A stretch of DNA of 44,816 nt from Clostridia bacterium (GCA_017935165.1 JAGBID010000179.1:1-44816); one strand, 5' to 3'. Counted from the first letter of the stretch, positions 5 to 4,894 are shown. Notes: a model not told the origin generated them from the sequence alone. Numbers and translations: made by a program.

Positions 5-2479
5 ATGAAAAAGCGTTTACTGTCACTTATACTTATATTTACCATATTATTTTCCGCTGTGCCCTTCACTTCTTTTGAGGCAGAAGCTGATACAGCCGAG
101 GCTCAGAACGTTTCCGAGGGTGTAGAAAACATTGTTAAAAGAGCAAGGCAGATGACTGAAATTGAGTGGACCCCAAAGAAAAATATCACGGGTTGGGGCT
201 ACGAATACACCTACGAGGCAGGCGTAACCTACAAGGGTCTGCCTTACGGTCAGCCTACAAATGCCAACGGCTGCCGCGGTGACTATGTACCCTGGGAAGC
301 TTCCCTTGATAAATTCTTAGCCGCCGTCAACGATGAAACAAGCCTTATTTATACTTCAAGCGCTAACTACAGCGAAATTGCACCTTACTATTCCGTTGAC
401 TGCAGCGGTTTCGTTTCCTGGGCGTGGGATTTACCCGTAAGAACAACTGCCAGCGGTATAAGAAGCTACGCAACCTTAATAAGCACAGATTCCTACGAGG
501 ATGCCGAAATAGGCGACTGCCTTTGTAATGCCTCCGCCCACGTTACCCTTATCACGGACGTTACAAGGGACTCAAACGGCAAGGTAACAAGCATTGAGAT
601 TTCAGAATCCAACGTAGGCTACGATAATAATTACTGCTGTTATTCCGTAAGATACGGTGAGGGCGGCGAATACACCCTTACCAAGTTTATGAATAAGTTT
701 ATAAACCGCGGCTACTACATTTACCGCAGTAACACAAGGGACCAGGCTGAGTACACCCACAGCTGTGCAGTACCTTTGGAAGGCGATAACTGTGACAAAT
801 GCGGTTACAGCAGTGCGGCTAATGCAAGAGATTTCATTGAAAGCACCTACCCCTCCTATGCTGAAATTGTAACCAAGGCGCCTGCAAAGGTTTACTCCTT
901 CCCCTGCACAAGCGAAGTAACAAGCGATTCCTTAAACATCCACACAACAACCGCAGGCGAAACTTTAACAGCCACGGCTTTATGCCTTAACACCAATGGC
1001 GAATACTGGTACAAGGTAAGCATAGACGGTGCAGTAGGCTATATATACGGTGGTGATACAGGCCTTAACAAGCTCCTTGACTCCGACATTACTGCCACAA
1101 ATATTGCCGAGCCCAAGGAAGTAACGGTAGGCAATCCCTTTAACCTTGGCGGTGTTTTGAAGGCTGTATATAATAAGCTTACCAAAATAGAAGTTCAGGT
1201 AACCTCCAACGGCACGGTTAACTTAAGCAGCAGCGCAAACGTTATAAATAACTCCTATAATTTAAAGAGCAGTTATATTGACAGCACCATAATTTTTAAC
1301 GATTTACTTGTAGGCAATTACGATTACGAGATTTACGTAACCGCTGAAAGGTACTACACCTCTGACGGTGCCAGCCTTAACAGCGACACAACAAAGTTCC
1401 TTATCCACGTAAACCCCTTCAAGGTTATAAGCGACATTGAGCACGATTGCGACAAGGGCAGCTTCAAATACGCAGGCGAGGCTCACCCCCATTACTCCTA
1501 CTATGAATGCTCACAGTGCGGCCTTATAAATGAATTTACCGACGAAACAAACCATATAAGCACCTGTACTCTTTGCAGACCCGAAAAACCCGTTTTAGCT
1601 GCCGAATATCAGGAGGATTGCAGCGGTGAAATAGACGTAAGCTTCAGCTGGGAAAAGGCTTCAAACGTTTCCTACTACGCCCTTACAATTTATGAAGAGC
1701 AGGCTAACGGCAACTATATGGAGACAGATTACGTAATAAATGCCGAAAGCGGTGTGGTTATACCCTTCACTTCAGGCAAATATAAGGTGATATTAACAGC
1801 TTACAACGAAAATTTTGAAGCAAGCGACGGCAACAGCCACGCATATACTGACAGCGACGAAATATATATCACAGTTTCCTCCGGCCACGAGTATGAGTCC
1901 TCCGTAAAGGCTCCTGACTGTATTTCCGAAGGCTATACACTTTACGTCTGCAAGCATTGTAAAGATGAATACAAGGAAGATATCATTCCTGCAACGGGTA
2001 TTCACACTTACAGCAACAATGCGGACGCAACCTGCAACGTGTGTGACTACGTAAGAGTGGCACCCGTCAAGTCAGTTCCCATGTACAGAATGTACGACAA
2101 AAACGGCGGCGAGCACTTCTACACAGGCAGCACCGAGGAACGCGACTTCCTTATTTCAGCAGGCTGGAGCTACGAGGGTGTAGGCTTTAACTTCCCTGCT
2201 GCAGGCAAGCCTGTCTACAGACTTTACGAGCCTATTACAGGCGAACACCTTTACACAATGGACTTAGAGGAGAAAGCAAAGCTTATTGAGGAAGGCTGGA
2301 ATGACGAGGGCGTTGCCTTCAACAGCGCTGACGAGGACGAAATTCCACAGTACCGCTTACATAACCCCAACGCATCAAGAGGTGCTTACCACTTTACAGG
2401 CAGCACCGAAGAGCGTGACATACTTATAGCCGCAGGCTGGGAATACCAGGGCATCGGCTTCTACAGCTGCAAGAGATAA
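5..2479 (+). CDS. Secreted multidomain cell-wall-associated protein. Contains a signal peptide, an NlpC/P60-like Cys-His peptidase domain, an SH3b-like segment, Cys-rich modules and three C-terminal DUF5648-like repeats.
   Basis: Hydrophobic N-terminus MKKRLLSLILIFTILFSAVPF. The DCSGFVSWAW motif plus downstream HVTLI resembles an NlpC/P60 catalytic Cys/His pair. GEYWYKVSIDGAVGYIYG looks SH3b-like. Several CxxC pairs are present. Three tandem ~40-aa units of the form YR.Y.P..GEH.YT...E...L...GW..EG..F span about 2081-2476. Confidence 0.6.
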   Translation: MKKRLLSLILIFTILFSAVPFTSFEAEADTAEAQNVSEGVENIVKRARQMTEIEWTPKKNITGWGYEYTYEAGVTYKGLPYGQPTNANGCRGDYVPWEASLDKFLAAVNDETSLIYTSSANYSEIAPYYSVDCSGFVSWAWDLPVRTTASGIRSYATLISTDSYEDAEIGDCLCNASAHVTLITDVTRDSNGKVTSIEISESNVGYDNNYCCYSVRYGEGGEYTLTKFMNKFINRGYYIYRSNTRDQAEYTHSCAVPLEGDNCDKCGYSSAANARDFIESTYPSYAEIVTKAPAKVYSFPCTSEVTSDSLNIHTTTAGETLTATALCLNTNGEYWYKVSIDGAVGYIYGGDTGLNKLLDSDITATNIAEPKEVTVGNPFNLGGVLKAVYNKLTKIEVQVTSNGTVNLSSSANVINNSYNLKSSYIDSTIIFNDLLVGNYDYEIYVTAERYYTSDGASLNSDTTKFLIHVNPFKVISDIEHDCDKGSFKYAGEAHPHYSYYECSQCGLINEFTDETNHISTCTLCRPEKPVLAAEYQEDCSGEIDVSFSWEKASNVSYYALTIYEEQANGNYMETDYVINAESGVVIPFTSGKYKVILTAYNENFEASDGNSHAYTDSDEIYITVSSGHEYESSVKAPDCISEGYTLYVCKHCKDEYKEDIIPATGIHTYSNNADATCNVCDYVRVAPVKSVPMYRMYDKNGGEHFYTGSTEERDFLISAGWSYEGVGFNFPAAGKPVYRLYEPITGEHLYTMDLEEKAKLIEEGWNDEGVAFNSADEDEIPQYRLHNPNASRGAYHFTGSTEERDILIAAGWEYQGIGFYSCKR

Positions 2480-2484
2480 AAAAC

Positions 2485-2513
2485 AGAGAGGCAATTATAA
2501 AAATTGTCTCTCT
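2485..2513. terminator. Bidirectional rho-independent terminator shared by the convergent 824-aa gene (+) and the RT gene (-)
   Basis: The ~12-bp stem agagaggcaatt / aattgtctctct has one wobble or mismatch and an ataaa loop. It has an A-tract on the left and a T-tract on the right. It fills the 35-bp gap between the two stop codons (2477-2479 and 2515-2517). Confidence 0.6.
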
Positions 2514-2514
2514 T

Positions 2515-3720
2515 TTATTTTTCCTCTTCAATTTTATAGTATTCGTGAACAAGGCTTCTGTACCCCAGCTTTTTTATATCCTCGTAGCGGAAGTCGTACA
2601 TTTTTTTGGTGTGCCTGCCTGTTGCTAAAAACCTTATATTATACTGGCAATATTCGTCTATTAATTTTAAGGATTCGTCGGTATTTATAATGGGGAAGTA
2701 CCACCTTGCCCAGGTAAGCTCCTTATCCTCTGTGTTTTCGTAAAGCTTTCTGTTGAAGGCTTTTACAAAGGCTTTGGCGGCTTTTTCGTTTGTTAGCTTC
2801 TTTCTTGCCTGCCAGCGCTTTAAGGCTCGCGCCTTCCTGCGCATTTTATCCTTCAGTTTTTTAACTGACACAGGCGAAACGTCCACCTTACCGTTATTAT
2901 AGCAAAAGCCTAAGTATACCCAGGGCTCCATAGGCTTCGTAAACTCCTCTTTTTTAGGGTTAACGCAAAGACCTTTGCTTATTAAATAGCTTTTAATTTC
3001 CTCGGATGCTTTTAAAATTTCAGCTTCATCTTCGGAAAAAACGATAATATCGTCGGAATACCTTGCATACAGAACGCCCTTTTTTTCAAAATACTTATCC
3101 ATATCCGCAAGGTATAAATTGGCAATAAAGGTTGAAACAGGTACGCCTGCCATTATGCCCTTTTTATTTTCCTCGTTTATAAGCTTCTCTCTGTCGTAAA
3201 CCAAGGTGTTATTTAAAAGAGAAATAATAAACTCAGCCGCCTCCCCGTCCTCTTTAAGTGTGCTTAAAAGCAGAGGCGTTATTTTGTCCACGGGTACGGA
3301 ATTGAAATAATCGCTTATATCCACCTTGTAGGAGTACATATTTCTTATATTTTTATAAGAAGTAAGCTTTTTCACAGCATCGCGGACAGATCTTTTCCTT
3401 CTGAAGGAGTAAAGGTTTTCGGGGAAAATATAGTCGTATTTTTCCTGCAAAAGGTAGGTTAAAAGCTTCAAAACGAAGTTTTCGCCCTCGGGAAAGGTGT
3501 AAACCACTCTTTTTTTCTCAGAACCCAGCTTGCTTATATACTTCTTTTTAGGTATGGGAAAATTTTCACCCGAAAGCATTTTGTTTACGATAGGGAGGTA
3601 CTCTTTATTTTCTATAAAAACCTTAAGGATTTTTTCGTCCCTTTTACTTAAGTGACCGCTGTTTATTTTATATTCCAAAAATTCCTGCCAAACATTTTCA
3701 AGCAAAAGCTGACTTAACAT
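2515..3720 (-). CDS. Stand-alone reverse transcriptase (RVT_1-type, 401 aa) with a group-II-like thumb region. It is not embedded in an intron and is a candidate retron-like or defence-associated RT.
   Basis: Catalytic YSDD is encoded at 3049-3060 (tat tcc gac gat on the minus strand). Motif A-like YKVDISDYFNSV, motif B-like GIMAGVPVSTFIANLYL and a LYSFRRKRSVRDAV motif are present. YLGF follows the palm domain. The C-terminal WARWYFP....LIDEY....IRFL segment resembles a maturase or thumb. A strong RBS gggagggg lies 5 nt upstream of the ATG. Confidence 0.85.
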   Translation of the reverse strand: MLSQLLLENVWQEFLEYKINSGHLSKRDEKILKVFIENKEYLPIVNKMLSGENFPIPKKKYISKLGSEKKRVVYTFPEGENFVLKLLTYLLQEKYDYIFPENLYSFRRKRSVRDAVKKLTSYKNIRNMYSYKVDISDYFNSVPVDKITPLLLSTLKEDGEAAEFIISLLNNTLVYDREKLINEENKKGIMAGVPVSTFIANLYLADMDKYFEKKGVLYARYSDDIIVFSEDEAEILKASEEIKSYLISKGLCVNPKKEEFTKPMEPWVYLGFCYNNGKVDVSPVSVKKLKDKMRRKARALKRWQARKKLTNEKAAKAFVKAFNRKLYENTEDKELTWARWYFPIINTDESLKLIDEYCQYNIRFLATGRHTKKMYDFRYEDIKKLGYRSLVHEYYKIEEEK

Positions 3721-3743
3721 ATAACCCCTCCCTTCTTAATATT

Positions 3744-3877
3744 AAAACAGAGAGAAAGTGCATTAAAGCATGCTTAACATTTCAGCATTCTACCGGGCCG
3801 TACACAGGCAGCTGCCTGCAAAGCTTATAAAGCCTGTGCTGTGCCCTTCGCAGGCGCAAAGCGTTTCTCTCTGTTTT
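3744..3877 (-). ncRNA. Candidate structured ncRNA (retron msr/msd-like) closed by a perfect 14-bp inverted repeat, lying directly upstream of the RT
   Basis: aaaacagagagaaa at 3744-3757 is the exact reverse complement of tttctctctgtttt at 3864-3877. The 106 nt between them has stop codons in all six frames and is G+C-richer. It contains four caggc/gcctg elements (3805-3809, 3814-3818, 3832-3836, 3851-3855), including the palindrome caggcagctgcctg. The element sits between the upstream stop (3899) and the RT start (3720). Strand is assumed to match the RT. Confidence 0.45.
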
Positions 3878-3898
3878 TAGCTATGTAATTTAGTTTTA

Positions 3899-4894
3899 TT
3901 ACTTAAGTGCTGCTTTTACTCTGCTTTTTACGTAGGTTTCGCTGTTACGGAAATTGGGAATAAACCTGATGGCGGGTATACCCTTTTCCTTTACAGCACT
4001 AAGAATATTACTTACCTTTCTTTCAGACAAATCACCGGTACCGAAAAGGAATATGGCAAGCTTTATTTCGCCATCCTTCCATAAAGCAAAGTCCGCTTTA
4101 ATATTTTCATCGGTTAAAATGCAGTCCTTATAAATATCATAATCACTGAAATTCTGTAAAAGTAAACCGGCAAAATAATCCTTTGGCTCGCCCCAATAGT
4201 GGTAAATATCCGCAGGGAAGTAACCATCAGTTACGCCTTTGCCAAAAAGCATATTGGCAGCTTTAAGGTCTCTTTTATTTGCATTAACCGTTATAGTCGC
4301 ATTCATACCCTTACAAACGCACTCACTAAAAGCACCAAGAATAGTGTTGTCATCCGTTCTGTCGATATAGGTAATTTTGCAGAAAGGCCCGAAAGCACTG
4401 CCGATAAACACGTTGCTGTCAAGCTGTGCATATCCATCAATAACTTTTCCCGTAAGAGTATTGCCCTTAATTTTGCTTACTGCGAATCTGAATGGTCCTG
4501 CAGGTACCTTTGAAACATCCGCCTCAGTAATAAGGGTACCGTTAATATTCGTTTCTTCATAAGGCTCCCAACTGCCGCTTACAATTTCGCCTTCATCGCT
4601 TTCAATTTCCCATTCACCCTCGTAGGTAATATCCTCTTCGGATGCTTCCCAGCTGCCGCTATAAATAACTTCCTCCTCTTTGTTTTCATCGGGAAGCTCT
4701 ATCTCGATTTCATCAACGGGGACATATTTTTCCTCTTTTTTCTCCTCAGCTTTATTTTCGCTTGTACCAATGCCTAATTTTTCACGGAGGTGTTCCATCG
4801 AATAGGTAAGTCCGCACTCAATGCAGGTAGCGCCCTTGCCGCCCTTGTTGATTTCCAAAGTACCGCCGCAGAGGTCGCAGGTAAGTTTTTTCAT
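3899..4894 (-). CDS. Hypothetical protein and candidate RT-associated effector. Domains in order: N-terminal zinc ribbon, acidic SGSWE-repeat linker, beta-barrel resembling translation-factor domain II, and a C-terminal DUF2726-like (PD-(D/E)xK-fold-like) domain.
   Basis: CDLCGG...CIECG forms the zinc ribbon at aa 6-27. The E/D-rich tract carries two SGSWE units at aa 45-115. aa 131-220, PFRFAVSKIKGNTLTGKVIDG...MLFGKG, follows the EF-Tu domain 2 spacing pattern. The tail ADFALWKDGEIKLAIFLFG....KGIPAIRF follows the DUF2726 pattern vDFvl...laIEldg...GiPvlRf, but with F where the acidic residue is expected. RBS aaggag lies 7 nt before the ATG. That it is coding is secure; the domain calls are from memory. 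Confidence 0.5.
   Translation of the reverse strand: MKKLTCDLCGGTLEINKGGKGATCIECGLTYSMEHLREKLGIGTSENKAEEKKEEKYVPVDEIEIELPDENKEEEVIYSGSWEASEEDITYEGEWEIESDEGEIVSGSWEPYEETNINGTLITEADVSKVPAGPFRFAVSKIKGNTLTGKVIDGYAQLDSNVFIGSAFGPFCKITYIDRTDDNTILGAFSECVCKGMNATITVNANKRDLKAANMLFGKGVTDGYFPADIYHYWGEPKDYFAGLLLQNFSDYDIYKDCILTDENIKADFALWKDGEIKLAIFLFGTGDLSERKVSNILSAVKEKGIPAIRFIPNFRNSETYVKSRVKAALK

What the first reader, a model, noticed from the sequence alone, without database searches (positions are those of the whole stretch)
2480..4894. Candidate uncharacterised RT system: Zn-ribbon/nuclease-fold protein, then an inverted-repeat-closed ncRNA, then a stand-alone reverse transcriptase
Seen in the sequence: three co-oriented minus-strand elements lie with no intervening terminator hairpin. 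They are a 331-aa protein (4894-3899), a 134-nt non-coding element closed by a perfect 14-bp inverted repeat (3877-3744), and a 401-aa RT with an intact YSDD box (3720-2515). The cassette ends in its own terminator (2485-2513). Established knowledge: stand-alone bacterial RTs that are paired with an upstream structured ncRNA and an accessory protein are the architecture of retrons and several DRT/UG defence systems. In those systems the RT makes a cDNA from the ncRNA and an effector causes abortive infection. Inference: this may be such a system. However, I do not recognise the accessory protein architecture as any retron or DRT effector I know. The RT also lacks retron-specific motifs, so it may represent a new type. 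I saw no integrase, CRISPR, group II intron RNA or DGR repeat nearby.
Basis: partly seen in the sequence, partly recalled or inferred. Interest (0 to 1): 0.9.

Follow-up and report, generated by a model that had tools for sequence, protein, structure and literature searches.

The report
UG26 reverse transcriptase–ncRNA–accessory cassette
This is a real, intact three-part bacterial cassette (small protein, folded RNA, reverse transcriptase), but it belongs to an already catalogued family (UG26 reverse transcriptases with the Rfam RT-5 RNA) whose function nobody has yet tested, so it is not a new type.

Summary

- The RT is a full-length match to PADLOC RT_UG26 (E 8e-166), a class 2 UG/Abi group.
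- The RNA is Rfam RF03026, RT-5 (71 bits, cut-off 45.7).
- The accessory C-terminus matches PADLOC RTasCOG2852, the partner already reported for UG26.

Across 139 informative homologous loci, 121 keep accessory–ncRNA–RT and 16 keep only ncRNA–RT. The RNA shows strong covariation in 48 pairs. These include the closing stem and a 7-bp pseudoknot, neither of which appears in the Rfam structure line.

Flanking genes are unrelated housekeeping genes, there is no defence-island signal, and the family is absent from viral contigs.

The accessory domain has a restriction-endonuclease-like fold but no invariant acidic or lysine residue.

No paper I could search has characterised UG26. By analogy with DRT9, DRT10 and UG27, I infer that the RT copies the ncRNA into cDNA. 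Priming is probably from the conserved C-terminal Tyr-Tyr. The template may be the junction after P4, which often carries an A-B-A' repeat.

The parts
3899..4894 (-). Accessory gene, 331 aa, the first gene of the cassette
   Evidence: ORF. A promoter-like site lies at 4948-4920(-), just upstream. A homologous C-terminal domain sits upstream of the ncRNA in 121 of 139 informative loci.
4814..4879 (-). N-terminal CxxC...CxxC zinc ribbon (residues 6-27)
   Evidence: Visible in the sequence. AF2 models beta strands at 12-15, 21-24 and 30-32 with pLDDT 77-89. It is found only in the closest relatives, L001-L006 and L009.
4520..4765 (-). Acidic, disordered linker (residues 44-125) carrying SGSWE / EGEWE repeats
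   Evidence: pLDDT is below 50. An S-W-G motif is nearly invariant across the accessory family.
4241..4492 (-). Middle beta-barrel (residues 135-218), similar to EF-Tu domain 2
   Evidence: AF2 gives pLDDT 78-94. Foldseek against PDB matches EF-Tu, eEF1A and EF2 at E about 1e-4. The domain is absent from most family members.
3902..4210 (-). Conserved C-terminal domain of the accessory (residues 229-331), restriction-endonuclease-like alpha/beta fold
   Evidence: PADLOC RTasCOG2852, E 1.7e-7. The AF2 model of this domain alone has pLDDT 90.4 and pTM 0.84. The best PDB folds are I-Bth0305I, Bax1, the R2 RLE domain and restriction enzymes, with TM 0.5-0.6 and E about 0.02. Invariant residues are F241, F249, N317, Y321, V322 and R325, with Y240 conserved in at least 90% of sequences. 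There is no invariant D, E or K, and the family's roughly 90%-conserved Glu is F282 here.
3744..3877 (-). Structured ncRNA, 134 nt (Rfam RT-5 core at 3755-3859 plus closing stem P1)
   Evidence: Rfam RF03026 at 71.1 bits against a gathering score of 45.7. My own covariance model R1 scores 106.8 bits. A covariation count on 100 sequences shows 94.7% of cells paired and 44 of 48 pairs with compensatory changes.
3864..3877 (-). P1 5' arm (AAAACAGAGAGAAA)
   Evidence: In one search, all 15 P1 pairs carry double changes and 97.3% of cells are paired. Distant members (L084, L093, L105) have an entirely different P1 sequence that still pairs.
3744..3757 (-). P1 3' arm (UUUCUCUCUGUUUU), running into a U-rich tail
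3849..3855 (-). Pseudoknot 5' strand (GCCUGCG)
   Evidence: It pairs with 3814-3820. The helix has 7 pairs, 99.9% of cells paired, and 6 pairs with compensatory changes such as GC:85 / AU:11.
3814..3820 (-). Pseudoknot 3' strand (UGCAGGC), in the apical loop of P3b
3794..3847 (-). Central arm P2-P3-P3b (5' strands 3847-3832 and 3825-3822; 3' strands 3813-3810 and 3809-3794)
   Evidence: (helices 3 and 4), and the Rfam consensus structure.
3770..3788 (-). P4 hairpin (AUGCU...AGCAU)
   Evidence: (helix 5: all 7 pairs with double changes).
3758..3769 (-). Junction J4/1 (GCUUUAAUGCAC) with the nearly invariant UUUAA; candidate template loop (inference)
   Evidence: T119 and A122 are invariant, and T120 and A121 are conserved in at least 90% of sequences. 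A direct repeat A..A' of at least 4 nt is present in 48% of 83 distinct sequences against 20.5% in shuffles, with a period of 8-9 nt. In the window the pattern is CUUU-AAUGCA-CUUU.
2515..3720 (-). Reverse transcriptase gene, 401 aa, UG26 group
   Evidence: PADLOC RT_UG26, E 7.8e-166, covering residues 2-399 of 401. Pfam RVT_1 covers 81-272. All NCBIfam RT models score below their cut-offs.
3049..3060 (-). YSDD catalytic box (residues 221-224)
   Evidence: Invariant in 160 of 160 homologues.
2536..2541 (-). C-terminal Tyr394-Tyr395, candidate protein-priming residues (inference)
   Evidence: Invariant in A1. The pair is YY in 107 of the 116 distinct C-terminal tails that match the surrounding motif. 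It is analogous to the two C-terminal priming tyrosines of DRT9 (PMC12483538).
2485..2513 (.). Hairpin terminator after the RT stop, shared with the convergent gene at 5-2479(+)
   Evidence: 12-bp stem with T-runs on both strands.

Best explanation
The cassette is a UG26-type class 2 UG/Abi reverse-transcriptase system. It consists of an accessory protein, a 134-nt ncRNA (Rfam RT-5) and the RT.

Shown:
- The identity of all three parts.
- Their conserved order.
- The RNA architecture: a closing stem P1, a central arm P2-P3-P3b whose apical loop forms a 7-bp pseudoknot with the 5' junction, and a 3' hairpin P4.
- The invariant core of the system is ncRNA plus RT.

Inferred from characterised class 2 relatives (DRT2, DRT9, DRT10, UG27):
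- The RT binds this RNA as both scaffold and template and makes a cDNA from part of it (probability about 0.7).

Most likely specific version (probability about 0.35):
- Synthesis is primed by the conserved C-terminal Tyr394/Tyr395, as in DRT9 and some DRT10 enzymes.
- The enzyme reiteratively copies the short junction between P4 and the P1 3' arm (UUUAA-N3-5). In about half of the family this junction has an A-B-A' repeat of the kind DRT10 uses for template realignment.
- The predicted product is a short tandem-repeat ssDNA. For the window the unit is about 10 nt, 5'-GTGCATTAAA-3'.

The accessory protein has a restriction-endonuclease-like fold but a degenerate active site. It more likely binds nucleic acid or the RNP, as cofactor, sensor or effector, than acts as a canonical nuclease.

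An anti-phage role is plausible by family membership but is not evidenced here.
For: Identity:
- RT_UG26 scores 549.7 bits over the full length; the next groups are UG27 at 112.9, UG17 at 104.8 and Drt9 at 91.2.
- RT-5 scores 71.1 bits against a cut-off of 45.7.
- RTasCOG2852 matches the accessory C-terminus.
- Mestre 2022 reports UG26 co-located with a COG2852 cluster.

Synteny:
- 121 of 139 informative loci have accessory+ncRNA+RT and 16 have ncRNA+RT. The median gaps are 22 nt and 30 nt.
- There is one ncRNA per locus, always on the RT strand.

RNA structure:
- 48 pairs, 94.7% of cells paired against 80.4% in shuffles and 40-49% when partners are slid.
- 667 compensatory cells against 155 in shuffles.
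- The pseudoknot is 99.9% paired.

Mechanistic analogy:
- All 160 RTs keep YSDD, and most keep a C-terminal YY.
- DRT9 primes from two C-terminal tyrosines.
- DRT10 uses a template loop just 3' of a stable stem-loop with an A-B-A' pattern.
- J4/1 occupies the same relative position. It shows A..A' repeats of at least 4 nt in 48% of sequences against 20.5% in shuffles, and more shared k-mers within a sequence than between sequences (z = 4.1).
- A varies by lineage: GAUUUU, GGAUUU, GCUUU, GGUUUU, CUUU.
Against: - There is no experimental data on UG26 in the searchable literature.
- The template is not identified. The A-B-A' signal is present in only about half of the sequences and is inflated by U-runs. 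It has no phylogenetic correction, and the single-base test gives only p of about 0.02. It could instead reflect an alternative pairing partner for the P4 5' arm.
- The nearest HMM neighbour, UG27, makes short hairpin cDNAs rather than repeats.
- There is no defence-island context in the window or in 36 other loci, where 127 of 139 flanking ORFs are singletons and mostly housekeeping.
- The family is absent from IMG/VR.
- The accessory has no invariant acidic residue or lysine, and it is missing from 12% of loci.
- P1 plus the U-run could be a terminator or attenuator.
Confidence: 0.6

Rival explanations
1. UG27-like mode. The RT, perhaps together with the accessory protein, copies a defined hairpin of the ncRNA once into a short (about 40-100 nt) ssDNA hairpin. 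The likely template is the central P2-P3-P3b arm. There would be no repeat addition.
For: UG27 is the closest other group by profile score (112.9 bits). Its ncRNA units are a similar size (about 135-167 nt), have a basal hairpin and a pseudoknot, and carry conserved motifs bracketing a central stem. [quoted passage not shown] The UG26 RNA likewise has conserved junction motifs (ACGC.., GUAC, GUA) bracketing a sequence-variable central arm.
Against: The UG27 start and stop motifs (AUC-N7-UANAG and UUYA) are not recognisable in RT-5. UG27 is phage-borne and uses arrays of units and two different accessory proteins. UG26 has a single unit, a single unrelated accessory, and is absent from viral contigs. 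The apical loop of the central arm is locked in a conserved pseudoknot and its sequence is highly conserved, whereas UG27 templates are diverse.
Confidence: 0.2
2. Retron. The inverted repeat corresponds to a1/a2, the RNA is an msr-msd, the RT primes from a 2'-OH of a branching G to make msDNA, and the accessory is the toxin or effector.
For: A perfect inverted repeat closes a structured RNA immediately upstream of an RT, with a co-oriented accessory gene.
Against: The RT is UG26, not a retron RT. PADLOC retron RT models score at most 61 bits against 549.7. NCBIfam retron St85 scores 65.7 against a cut-off of 235, and the retron-TIR model scores 26.6 against 600. No retron ncRNA family in Rfam matches, even at E up to 1. 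The characterised relatives DRT9 and DRT10 prime from protein, and a candidate Tyr-Tyr is conserved here.
Confidence: 0.04
3. DRT2-like rolling-circle reverse transcription. P1 brings the template ends together, giving concatemeric cDNA that encodes a never-ending ORF.
For: A closing stem juxtaposes the two ends of the RNA, and the arrangement is ncRNA directly upstream of the RT, as in DRT2.
Against: The length of the P1-enclosed unit is not constrained to multiples of three (38/35/26 for mod 3 = 0/1/2). It varies from 128 to 183 nt through loop insertions. NCBIfam Drt2 scores 75 bits against a cut-off of 390. The high nucleotide-level conservation of unpaired junctions fits an RNA scaffold, not a coding template.
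Confidence: 0.03
4. The RNA is only a cis-regulatory leader. It would be an RT-binding autoregulatory element or attenuator, with P1 plus the U-run acting as a terminator that controls RT expression, and it would not be a template.
For: The P1 3' arm is followed by a U-run in most loci and lies 18-30 nt before the RT start. Some loci add a separate GC-rich hairpin terminator between the RNA and the RT (L015, L031, L046, L047).
Against: Distant members (L084, L093, L105) lack the U-run after P1. A five-helix RNA with a pseudoknot is far more elaborate than an attenuator needs. Every characterised class 2 UG/Abi ncRNA is a template. The RNA is separated from the RT by an ORF in L026 and by more than 200 nt in L062.
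Confidence: 0.08

Closest known systems
UG26 group of class 2 UG/Abi reverse transcriptases (Mestre et al. 2022, NAR, PMC9226505; PADLOC model RT_UG26)
   Same: Full-length profile match (E 7.8e-166). The protein is about 400 aa with no extra domain and has YSDD. Its neighbour carries the COG2852-like domain (PADLOC RTasCOG2852).
   Different: Nothing separates the RT from the group. The published description gives the accessory in only 9 of 35 members and mentions no ncRNA. Here the accessory domain is found in 121 of 139 loci and the ncRNA in 137 of 139. The window's accessory additionally carries a Zn ribbon, an acidic linker and an EF-Tu-domain-2-like barrel.
Rfam RF03026, RT-5 RNA motif (Weinberg et al. 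2017, PMC5737381)
   Same: The match scores 71.1 bits over all 104 model positions and lies next to an RT gene, as the motif was defined.
   Different: The Rfam structure line shown by cmscan covers only P2-P3-P3b and P4. The closing 14-15-bp P1 stem and the 7-bp pseudoknot, both supported by covariation here, are not in that line. The 2017 paper only speculated that RT motifs might be retron or DGR parts.
DRT10 (UG17): RT + 137-nt ncRNA + SLATT (PMC12632851)
   Same: A class 2 UG/Abi RT in a tripartite locus with an ncRNA of about 135 nt. DRT10's template loop lies just 3' of a stable stem-loop and uses A-B-A' realignment with priming from the RT C-terminus. UG26 has a comparable junction after P4, frequent A..A' repeats, and a conserved C-terminal YY.
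   Different: The RT belongs to a different group (RT_UG17 scores only 104.8 bits). The accessory is not a SLATT membrane protein. The gene order is accessory-ncRNA-RT here, whereas in DRT10 the ncRNA lies upstream of SLATT. The product and the defence role are untested here.
DRT9 (UG28): RT + ncRNA, protein-primed poly-dA (PMC12483538)
   Same: An ncRNA upstream of a class 2 RT. Two conserved tyrosines sit in the C-terminal tail. A conserved U-containing motif lies near the 3' end of the RNA, after the last stem-loop. Many members are two-component, as are 12% of UG26 loci.
   Different: The Drt9 profile scores only 91 bits over the RT core. The UG26 junction has UUUAA rather than a long poly-U tract. 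There is no evidence for a hexamer or for poly-dA.
UG27 phage-encoded RT systems (bioRxiv 10.64898/2026.09.22.753630)
   Same: It is the nearest group by profile score. Its ncRNA units are of similar size, with a basal stem and a pseudoknot, and its accessory proteins are needed for cDNA synthesis.
   Different: UG27 is carried by phages and prophages, has arrays of many units, and has two other accessory proteins. UG26 is chromosomal in Clostridia, has a single unit, and has one unrelated accessory.
Retrons
   Same: An inverted repeat closes a structured RNA next to an RT, with an accessory gene nearby.
   Different: The RT clade differs, no retron ncRNA model matches, and the priming chemistry is probably different.

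Membership tests
UG26 (class 2 UG/Abi RT system) | The RT matches the UG26 profile over its full length and better than any other RT group | tested here: met
   549.7 bits, residues 2-399 against profile positions 4-397 of 398. The next best group scores 112.9 bits.
UG26 (class 2 UG/Abi RT system) | An RT of about 400 aa with no additional known domain and an intact YxDD box | tested here: met
   One search finds only RVT_1. Searches show YSDD.
UG26 (class 2 UG/Abi RT system) | Co-located COG2852-like accessory protein (cluster 1531 of Mestre 2022) | tested here: met
   RTasCOG2852, E 1.7e-7, on residues 229-330; the domain is upstream in 121 of 139 loci.
Rfam RT-5 RNA (RF03026) | Covariance-model score at or above the curated gathering score, next to an RT gene | tested here: met
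   71.1 bits against 45.7, all 104 model positions, 23 nt upstream of the RT start.
Retron | The RT belongs to the retron RT clade | tested here: not met
   retron-type PADLOC models score at most about 61 bits; retron St85 scores 65.7 against a cut-off of 235.
Retron | An msr-msd RNA with a1/a2 repeats and a branching G that primes msDNA | tested here: inconclusive
   A closing inverted repeat exists. No Rfam retron RNA matches at E up to 1. Branch priming cannot be tested in silico.
Group II intron RT/maturase | The RT reaches the group II RT/maturase cut-off and is embedded in intron RNA domains | tested here: not met
   TIGR04416 scores 108.6 against a cut-off of 300; no group II intron RNA in the window.
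DRT2 (UG2) | Drt2 RT profile, and an ncRNA template that gives a stop-free concatemeric ORF | tested here: not met
   75.2 bits against a cut-off of 390; no length constraint to multiples of three, and variable insertions.
DRT10 (UG17) | UG17 RT with a SLATT partner | tested here: not met
   RT_UG17 scores 104.8 bits against 549.7 for UG26, and the accessory's only PADLOC hit is RTasCOG2852; no Pfam domain in the accessory.
DRT10 (UG17) | [quoted passage not shown] | tested here: inconclusive
   enriched (48% against 20.5% with |A| of at least 4; z = 4.1 across sequences), but not universal and not corrected for phylogeny.
DRT9 (UG28) | UG28 RT, a universally conserved poly-U template, and C-terminal priming tyrosines | tested here: inconclusive
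   Drt9 scores 91.2 bits over the core only, so this is not a member. Only UUUAA is conserved. A C-terminal YY is conserved.
UG27 | A phage-borne locus with arrays of ncRNA units and two accessory proteins | tested here: not met
   no UG26 in IMG/VR; one unit per locus. RT_UG27 scores 112.9 bits.
PD-(D/E)xK / Vsr-like (DUF559, COG2852) nucleases, for the accessory C-terminal domain | Restriction-endonuclease-like alpha-beta-beta-beta-alpha-beta fold | tested here: met
   pLDDT 90. The top PDB folds are all RE-like nucleases, but the matches are weak (E about 0.02, TM 0.5-0.6). No Pfam or PDB sequence hit was found.
PD-(D/E)xK / Vsr-like (DUF559, COG2852) nucleases, for the accessory C-terminal domain | Conserved catalytic D...(D/E)xK (or the Vsr D/E/H) residues | tested here: not met
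   the invariant residues are F241, F249, N317, Y321, V322 and R325, with Y240 conserved in at least 90%. The only acidic residue conserved in at least 90% of the family is Phe (F282) in the window protein.
Anti-phage defence system (generic) | Enrichment next to known defence genes, or an experimentally shown phage resistance | tested here: not met
   the flanks are variable housekeeping genes with only sporadic defence hits. A phage assay is not testable with these tools. Mestre 2022 also called UG26 'inconclusive'.

The most novel reading that the evidence does not exclude
UG26 may be a further, still undescribed mode of class 2 RT action. In this reading, a chromosomal RNP that is not linked to defence islands uses its C-terminal Tyr-Tyr to prime telomerase-like synthesis of 8-10-nt tandem-repeat ssDNA. 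The template would be the UUUAA-containing junction of RT-5 RNA. A catalytically degenerate restriction-endonuclease-fold protein would read or cap the product instead of cutting DNA. In the window's lineage that protein is fused to a Zn ribbon and an EF-Tu-domain-2-like barrel. The role could even be something other than phage defence.
Probability: 0.25. Interest if true: 0.75.

Novelty: new member of a known kind. Interest (0 to 1): 0.5.

Why it matters
Each class 2 UG/Abi RT studied so far has turned out to make a different and unexpected DNA product. DRT2 builds a gene by rolling circle, DRT9 makes poly-dA, DRT10 makes telomerase-like repeats, and UG27 makes short hairpins.

UG26 is one of the groups still untouched. 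This work shows several things about it:
- It is common in rumen and gut Clostridia, with at least 581 matches in species-representative genomes.
- Its core is an RT plus a highly structured RNA that already has an Rfam model.
- The RNA has a closing stem and a pseudoknot that do not appear in the Rfam structure line.
- Concrete, cheap predictions are available to test: the template junction, the priming tyrosines and a non-catalytic accessory.

The window itself adds only one more member, with an unusual accessory architecture.

Tried and rejected
1. Retron reading. Rejected on RT profile scores and the absence of a retron RNA match.
2. Group II intron, Drt2, Drt3a, Drt4 and Drt5. All score below the NCBIfam cut-offs.
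3. DRT2-type never-ending ORF. The RNA length modulo 3 is 38/35/26 and loop insertions are common.
4. The 11-nt CTCTCTGTTTT repeat at the ncRNA 3' end and after the RT stop, considered as a possible second P1 partner or attachment-site duplication. It is not conserved in 148 loci.
5. The alternative 3-bp helix CGC/GCG proposed by RNAalifold. It is compatible with the sequences but has no covariation beyond conservation. The pseudoknot that uses the same bases is supported instead.
6. The plain MAFFT + RNAalifold consensus mis-registered P1 and missed P4. I replaced it with a hand-set structure and a covariance-model realignment.
7. Pfam, NCBIfam and PDB sequence searches on the accessory found nothing. 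The full-length fold search was dominated by the EF-Tu-like barrel, so the C-terminal domain was modelled separately.
8. Phage origin. One unrelated 28%-identity hit in IMG/VR.
9. Defence-island context. Not seen. The mad3, mad8 and AriA hits accompany ABC-transporter ATPases in the Pfam scans of the same proteins and are probably those.
10. The supplement of the RT-5 paper is not held.

Full report
**1. Observation**

The window has, on the minus strand, a 331-aa ORF (3899-4894) and a 401-aa ORF (2515-3720). A 178-nt spacer lies between them.
- The spacer holds a perfect 14-nt inverted repeat, with arms at 3864-3877 and 3744-3757.
- The 134-nt element these arms enclose folds at -52.6 kcal/mol, z = -3.8 against shuffles.
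- The RT has YSDD at residues 221-224.
- The hairpin at 2485-2513 is real, but it has T-runs on both strands and also serves the convergent gene at 5-2479.
- A promoter-like site lies at 4948-4920(-), just upstream of the first gene.

The description is therefore confirmed.

**2. What the parts are**

- The RT matches PADLOC RT_UG26 end to end (E 7.8e-166, 549.7 bits). The next groups are UG27 (112.9), UG17 (104.8) and Drt9 (91.2).
- Pfam sees only RVT_1 in the RT.
- All NCBIfam RT models fall far below their cut-offs: group II RT/maturase 108.6 against 300, Drt2 75 against 390, and retron St85 66 against 235.
- The spacer RNA is Rfam RF03026, RT-5, at 71.1 bits against a gathering score of 45.7. 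It is the only Rfam hit in the whole 44.8-kb window.
- The accessory protein has no Pfam or NCBIfam family. Its C-terminus (229-330) matches PADLOC RTasCOG2852 (E 1.7e-7).
- Mestre et al. 2022 (PMC9226505) list UG26 as a class 2 UG/Abi group. They found it co-located in 9 of 35 members with a COG2852/YcjD-like cluster, and called its defence prediction 'inconclusive'.
- Weinberg et al. 2017 (PMC5737381) described the RT-1 to RT-19 motifs only as RNAs near RT genes, perhaps parts of retrons or DGRs.
- I found no paper that characterises UG26 or that links it to RT-5.

**3. Conservation**

The RT family is large.
- The 120 best of the database hits are all about 400 aa and 53-97% identical.
- UG26-specific peptide patterns found at least 581 confirmed matches in species-representative genomes and at least 562 in metagenome contigs.
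- Nearly all hosts are Clostridia from rumen or gut.
- IMG/VR gave only one unrelated hit at 28% identity.

I classified the 160 UG26 loci fetched (the one viral locus excluded); 139 have enough upstream sequence to be informative.

| Architecture | Loci (of 139) |
|---|---|
| accessory domain + ncRNA + RT | 121 |
| ncRNA + RT only | 16 |
| RT alone | 2 |

- The median gap is 22 nt from the accessory stop to the RNA, and 30 nt from the RNA to the RT start.
- In the 16 two-part loci the upstream gene is an unrelated housekeeping gene.
- In L008 and L067 a -35/-10 pair sits directly 5' of P1 (sequences).

The invariant core is therefore ncRNA + RT, and the accessory is frequent but dispensable in some lineages.

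**4. RNA structure**

I set a structure by hand on a MAFFT alignment of 54 sequences. I then built a covariance model (R1) and realigned 100 distinct RNAs to it.

On that alignment:
- 48 pairs are 94.7% paired, against 80.4% in column shuffles and 40-49% when partners are slid by 1-3 columns.
- 44 pairs show compensatory double changes.
- There are 667 compensatory cells against 155 in shuffles.

| Helix | Pairs | Note |
|---|---|---|
| P1 | 15 | 97.3% paired |
| P2+P3 | 15 | |
| P3b | 4 | |
| P4 | 7 | |
| Pseudoknot | 7 | 99.9% paired, 6 pairs with double changes |

- The pseudoknot joins the 5' junction (GCCUGCG, 3849-3855) to the P3b apical loop (UGCAGGC, 3814-3820).
- Distant members (L084, L093, L105) have unrelated P1 sequences that still pair.
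- The alignment was fitted to the model, which favours the structure. Even so, the compensatory changes are already plain in the raw sequences.
- P1 and the pseudoknot are not in the structure line that cmscan prints for RT-5.
- A competing 3-bp helix suggested by RNAalifold has no covariation support.

**5. Context**

- In 36 diverse loci, 127 of 139 flanking ORFs have no homologue next to any other locus.
- The families found in these flanks are ABC transporters, alanine racemase, Maf, UPRTase and similar housekeeping genes. Defence hits (DpdF, PsyrT, BrxH) occur in single loci only.
- The window is likewise metabolic, with glycerate kinase, EPSP synthase, PTS, GH38 and glutamate dehydrogenase.

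The cassette is therefore a self-contained module in variable chromosomal sites. It shows no defence-island or prophage signal.

**6. Accessory protein**

The family has at least 871 90%-identity clusters. Every source name shown among the 120 best is 'hypothetical protein', and none of the 120 carries a Pfam domain apart from one zinc-ribbon hit.

AlphaFold2 on the window protein gives four regions:
- a Zn ribbon at residues 1-40;
- a disordered acidic linker at 44-125;
- a beta-barrel at 135-218, which Foldseek matches to domain 2 of EF-Tu, eEF1A and EF2 (E about 1e-4);
- a C-terminal alpha/beta domain.

Modelled alone, the C-terminal domain is confident (pLDDT 90.4, pTM 0.84). Its best PDB neighbours are all restriction-endonuclease-like nucleases: the I-Bth0305I catalytic domain, Bax1, the R2 RLE domain, DrdV and EcoT38I. 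The scores are weak, though (E about 0.02, TM 0.5-0.6).

The invariant residues are F241, F249, N317, Y321, V322 and R325, with Y240 conserved in at least 90% of sequences. There is no invariant Asp, Glu or Lys. The single Glu kept in at least 90% of members ('VVELM') is Phe282 in the window clade.

'Nuclease fold' is therefore fair, but 'nuclease effector' is not supported. A binding, cofactor or sensor role seems more likely (inference).

**7. Mechanism**

The characterised class 2 relatives all use the neighbouring ncRNA as scaffold and template.
- DRT10 (UG17) makes protein-primed tandem repeats. Its template is an A-B-A' loop placed 3' of a stable stem-loop.
- DRT9 (UG28) makes poly-dA from a U-tract, primed by two tyrosines in the C-terminal tail.
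- UG27 copies a central hairpin into 50-100-nt ssDNA and needs its accessory proteins.

UG26 RTs keep a C-terminal Tyr-Tyr (Y394/Y395). It is invariant in 26 aligned RTs, and it is YY in 107 of the 116 distinct tails that match the surrounding motif.

The junction between P4 and the P1 3' arm carries the nearly invariant UUUAA. It lies at the same relative position as the DRT10 template loop.

In 83 distinct sequences this junction shows a direct repeat A..A':

| Repeat length | Observed | Composition shuffles |
|---|---|---|
| at least 4 nt | 48% | 20.5 ± 4% |
| at least 5 nt | 30% | 3.7 ± 2% |

- The period is mostly 8-9 nt.
- A differs between lineages: GAUUUU, GGAUUU, GCUUU, GGUUUU, and CUUU in the window.
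- Within-sequence matches exceed between-sequence matches (3.67 against 3.35 ± 0.08, z = 4.1).
- A single-base identity test gives 41 of 80 against 31 expected (p about 0.02).

This is suggestive, not proof. U-runs inflate the signal and the sequences are related to one another. The same pattern would also arise if A' were an alternative partner for the P4 5' arm.

A DRT2-type coding template is unlikely, because there is no length constraint to multiples of three and loop insertions are common.

I therefore rate the steps as follows:

| Claim | Probability |
|---|---|
| Identity of the parts | about 0.95 |
| ncRNA-templated cDNA synthesis | about 0.7 |
| Protein-primed reiterative copying of J4/1 | about 0.35 |
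| UG27-like hairpin copying | about 0.2 |

**8. Verdict**

The finding is real and well described, but it is a member of a catalogued family (UG26, RT-5 and the COG2852-like partner), not a new type.

What remains open, and is worth an experiment, is what UG26 makes and what it is for. The analysis here supplies an extended RNA model, the near-universal synteny, the lack of defence-island context, a degenerate accessory active site, and specific template and priming predictions.

Noticed in passing
window 3744-3754 and 2480-2490 (minus strand): The 11-nt CTCTCTGTTTT forms the end of the ncRNA P1 3' arm and recurs inside the hairpin just after the RT stop, so it brackets the RT gene. It is not conserved in 148 other loci, so it is probably chance or T-rich terminator composition.
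   Followed up: yes
L008, L019, L022, L033, L054, L067, L071, L093, L105, L118, L120, L121, L136, L150, L152, L155: Sixteen of 139 loci carry only ncRNA + RT, with unrelated housekeeping genes upstream. In L008 and L067 a sigma-70-like -35/-10 sits directly 5' of P1, which suggests the ncRNA can have its own promoter.
   Followed up: partly
L034:2607-3776: The accessory ORF (389 aa) contains two tandem copies of the conserved C-terminal domain.
   Followed up: no
L026:1938-2660: A 186-aa ORF lies between the ncRNA (1938-2074) and the RT start (2660). In L062 the RNA is more than 200 nt from the RT. The RNA therefore need not be the RT's immediate leader.
   Followed up: no
window 4520-4765 (accessory residues 44-125): A disordered acidic linker carries SGSWE twice plus EGEWE. 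An S-W-G peptide is nearly invariant across the whole accessory family, even though it lies in a low-complexity region. It may be a docking motif.
   Followed up: no
window 4241-4492 (accessory residues 135-218): This is a beta-barrel similar to domain 2 of EF-Tu, eEF1A and EF2. It is present only in the window's closest relatives, and most family members have a low-complexity N-terminal region instead.
   Followed up: partly
L011, L029, L033, L075, L076, L122, L133: Large insertions of up to about 50 nt or more occur in the 5' junction, in the P3 internal loop or in P4. In L122 and L133 the P3b/pseudoknot loop region is missing from the alignment. The distal parts of the RNA are therefore tolerant to change in some lineages.
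   Followed up: no
L037-L066 (Acutalibacteraceae MAGs): About twenty species-level MAGs from one study share an identical ncRNA and a nearly identical 171-aa accessory. This could reflect recent spread, very close genomes or shared contigs.
   Followed up: no
L031: This is the only one of the 80 genome loci binned outside Bacillota (Phoenicibacter, Coriobacteriia). It sits on a 2.3-kb contig, so horizontal transfer or a binning error are both possible.
   Followed up: no
window 5-2479 (+): This is the convergent neighbour. It encodes an 824-aa protein with an N-terminal signal-like hydrophobic segment, many Cys-rich repeats and a C-terminal DUF5648 domain. It is unrelated to the cassette.
   Followed up: no
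L072, L023, L008, L045, L031, L079, L017 (antisense of the ncRNA): Weak covariance-model hits (25-29 bits) appear on the opposite strand at the same place. They are a consequence of the helices reading similarly on both strands, not a second RNA.
   Followed up: yes
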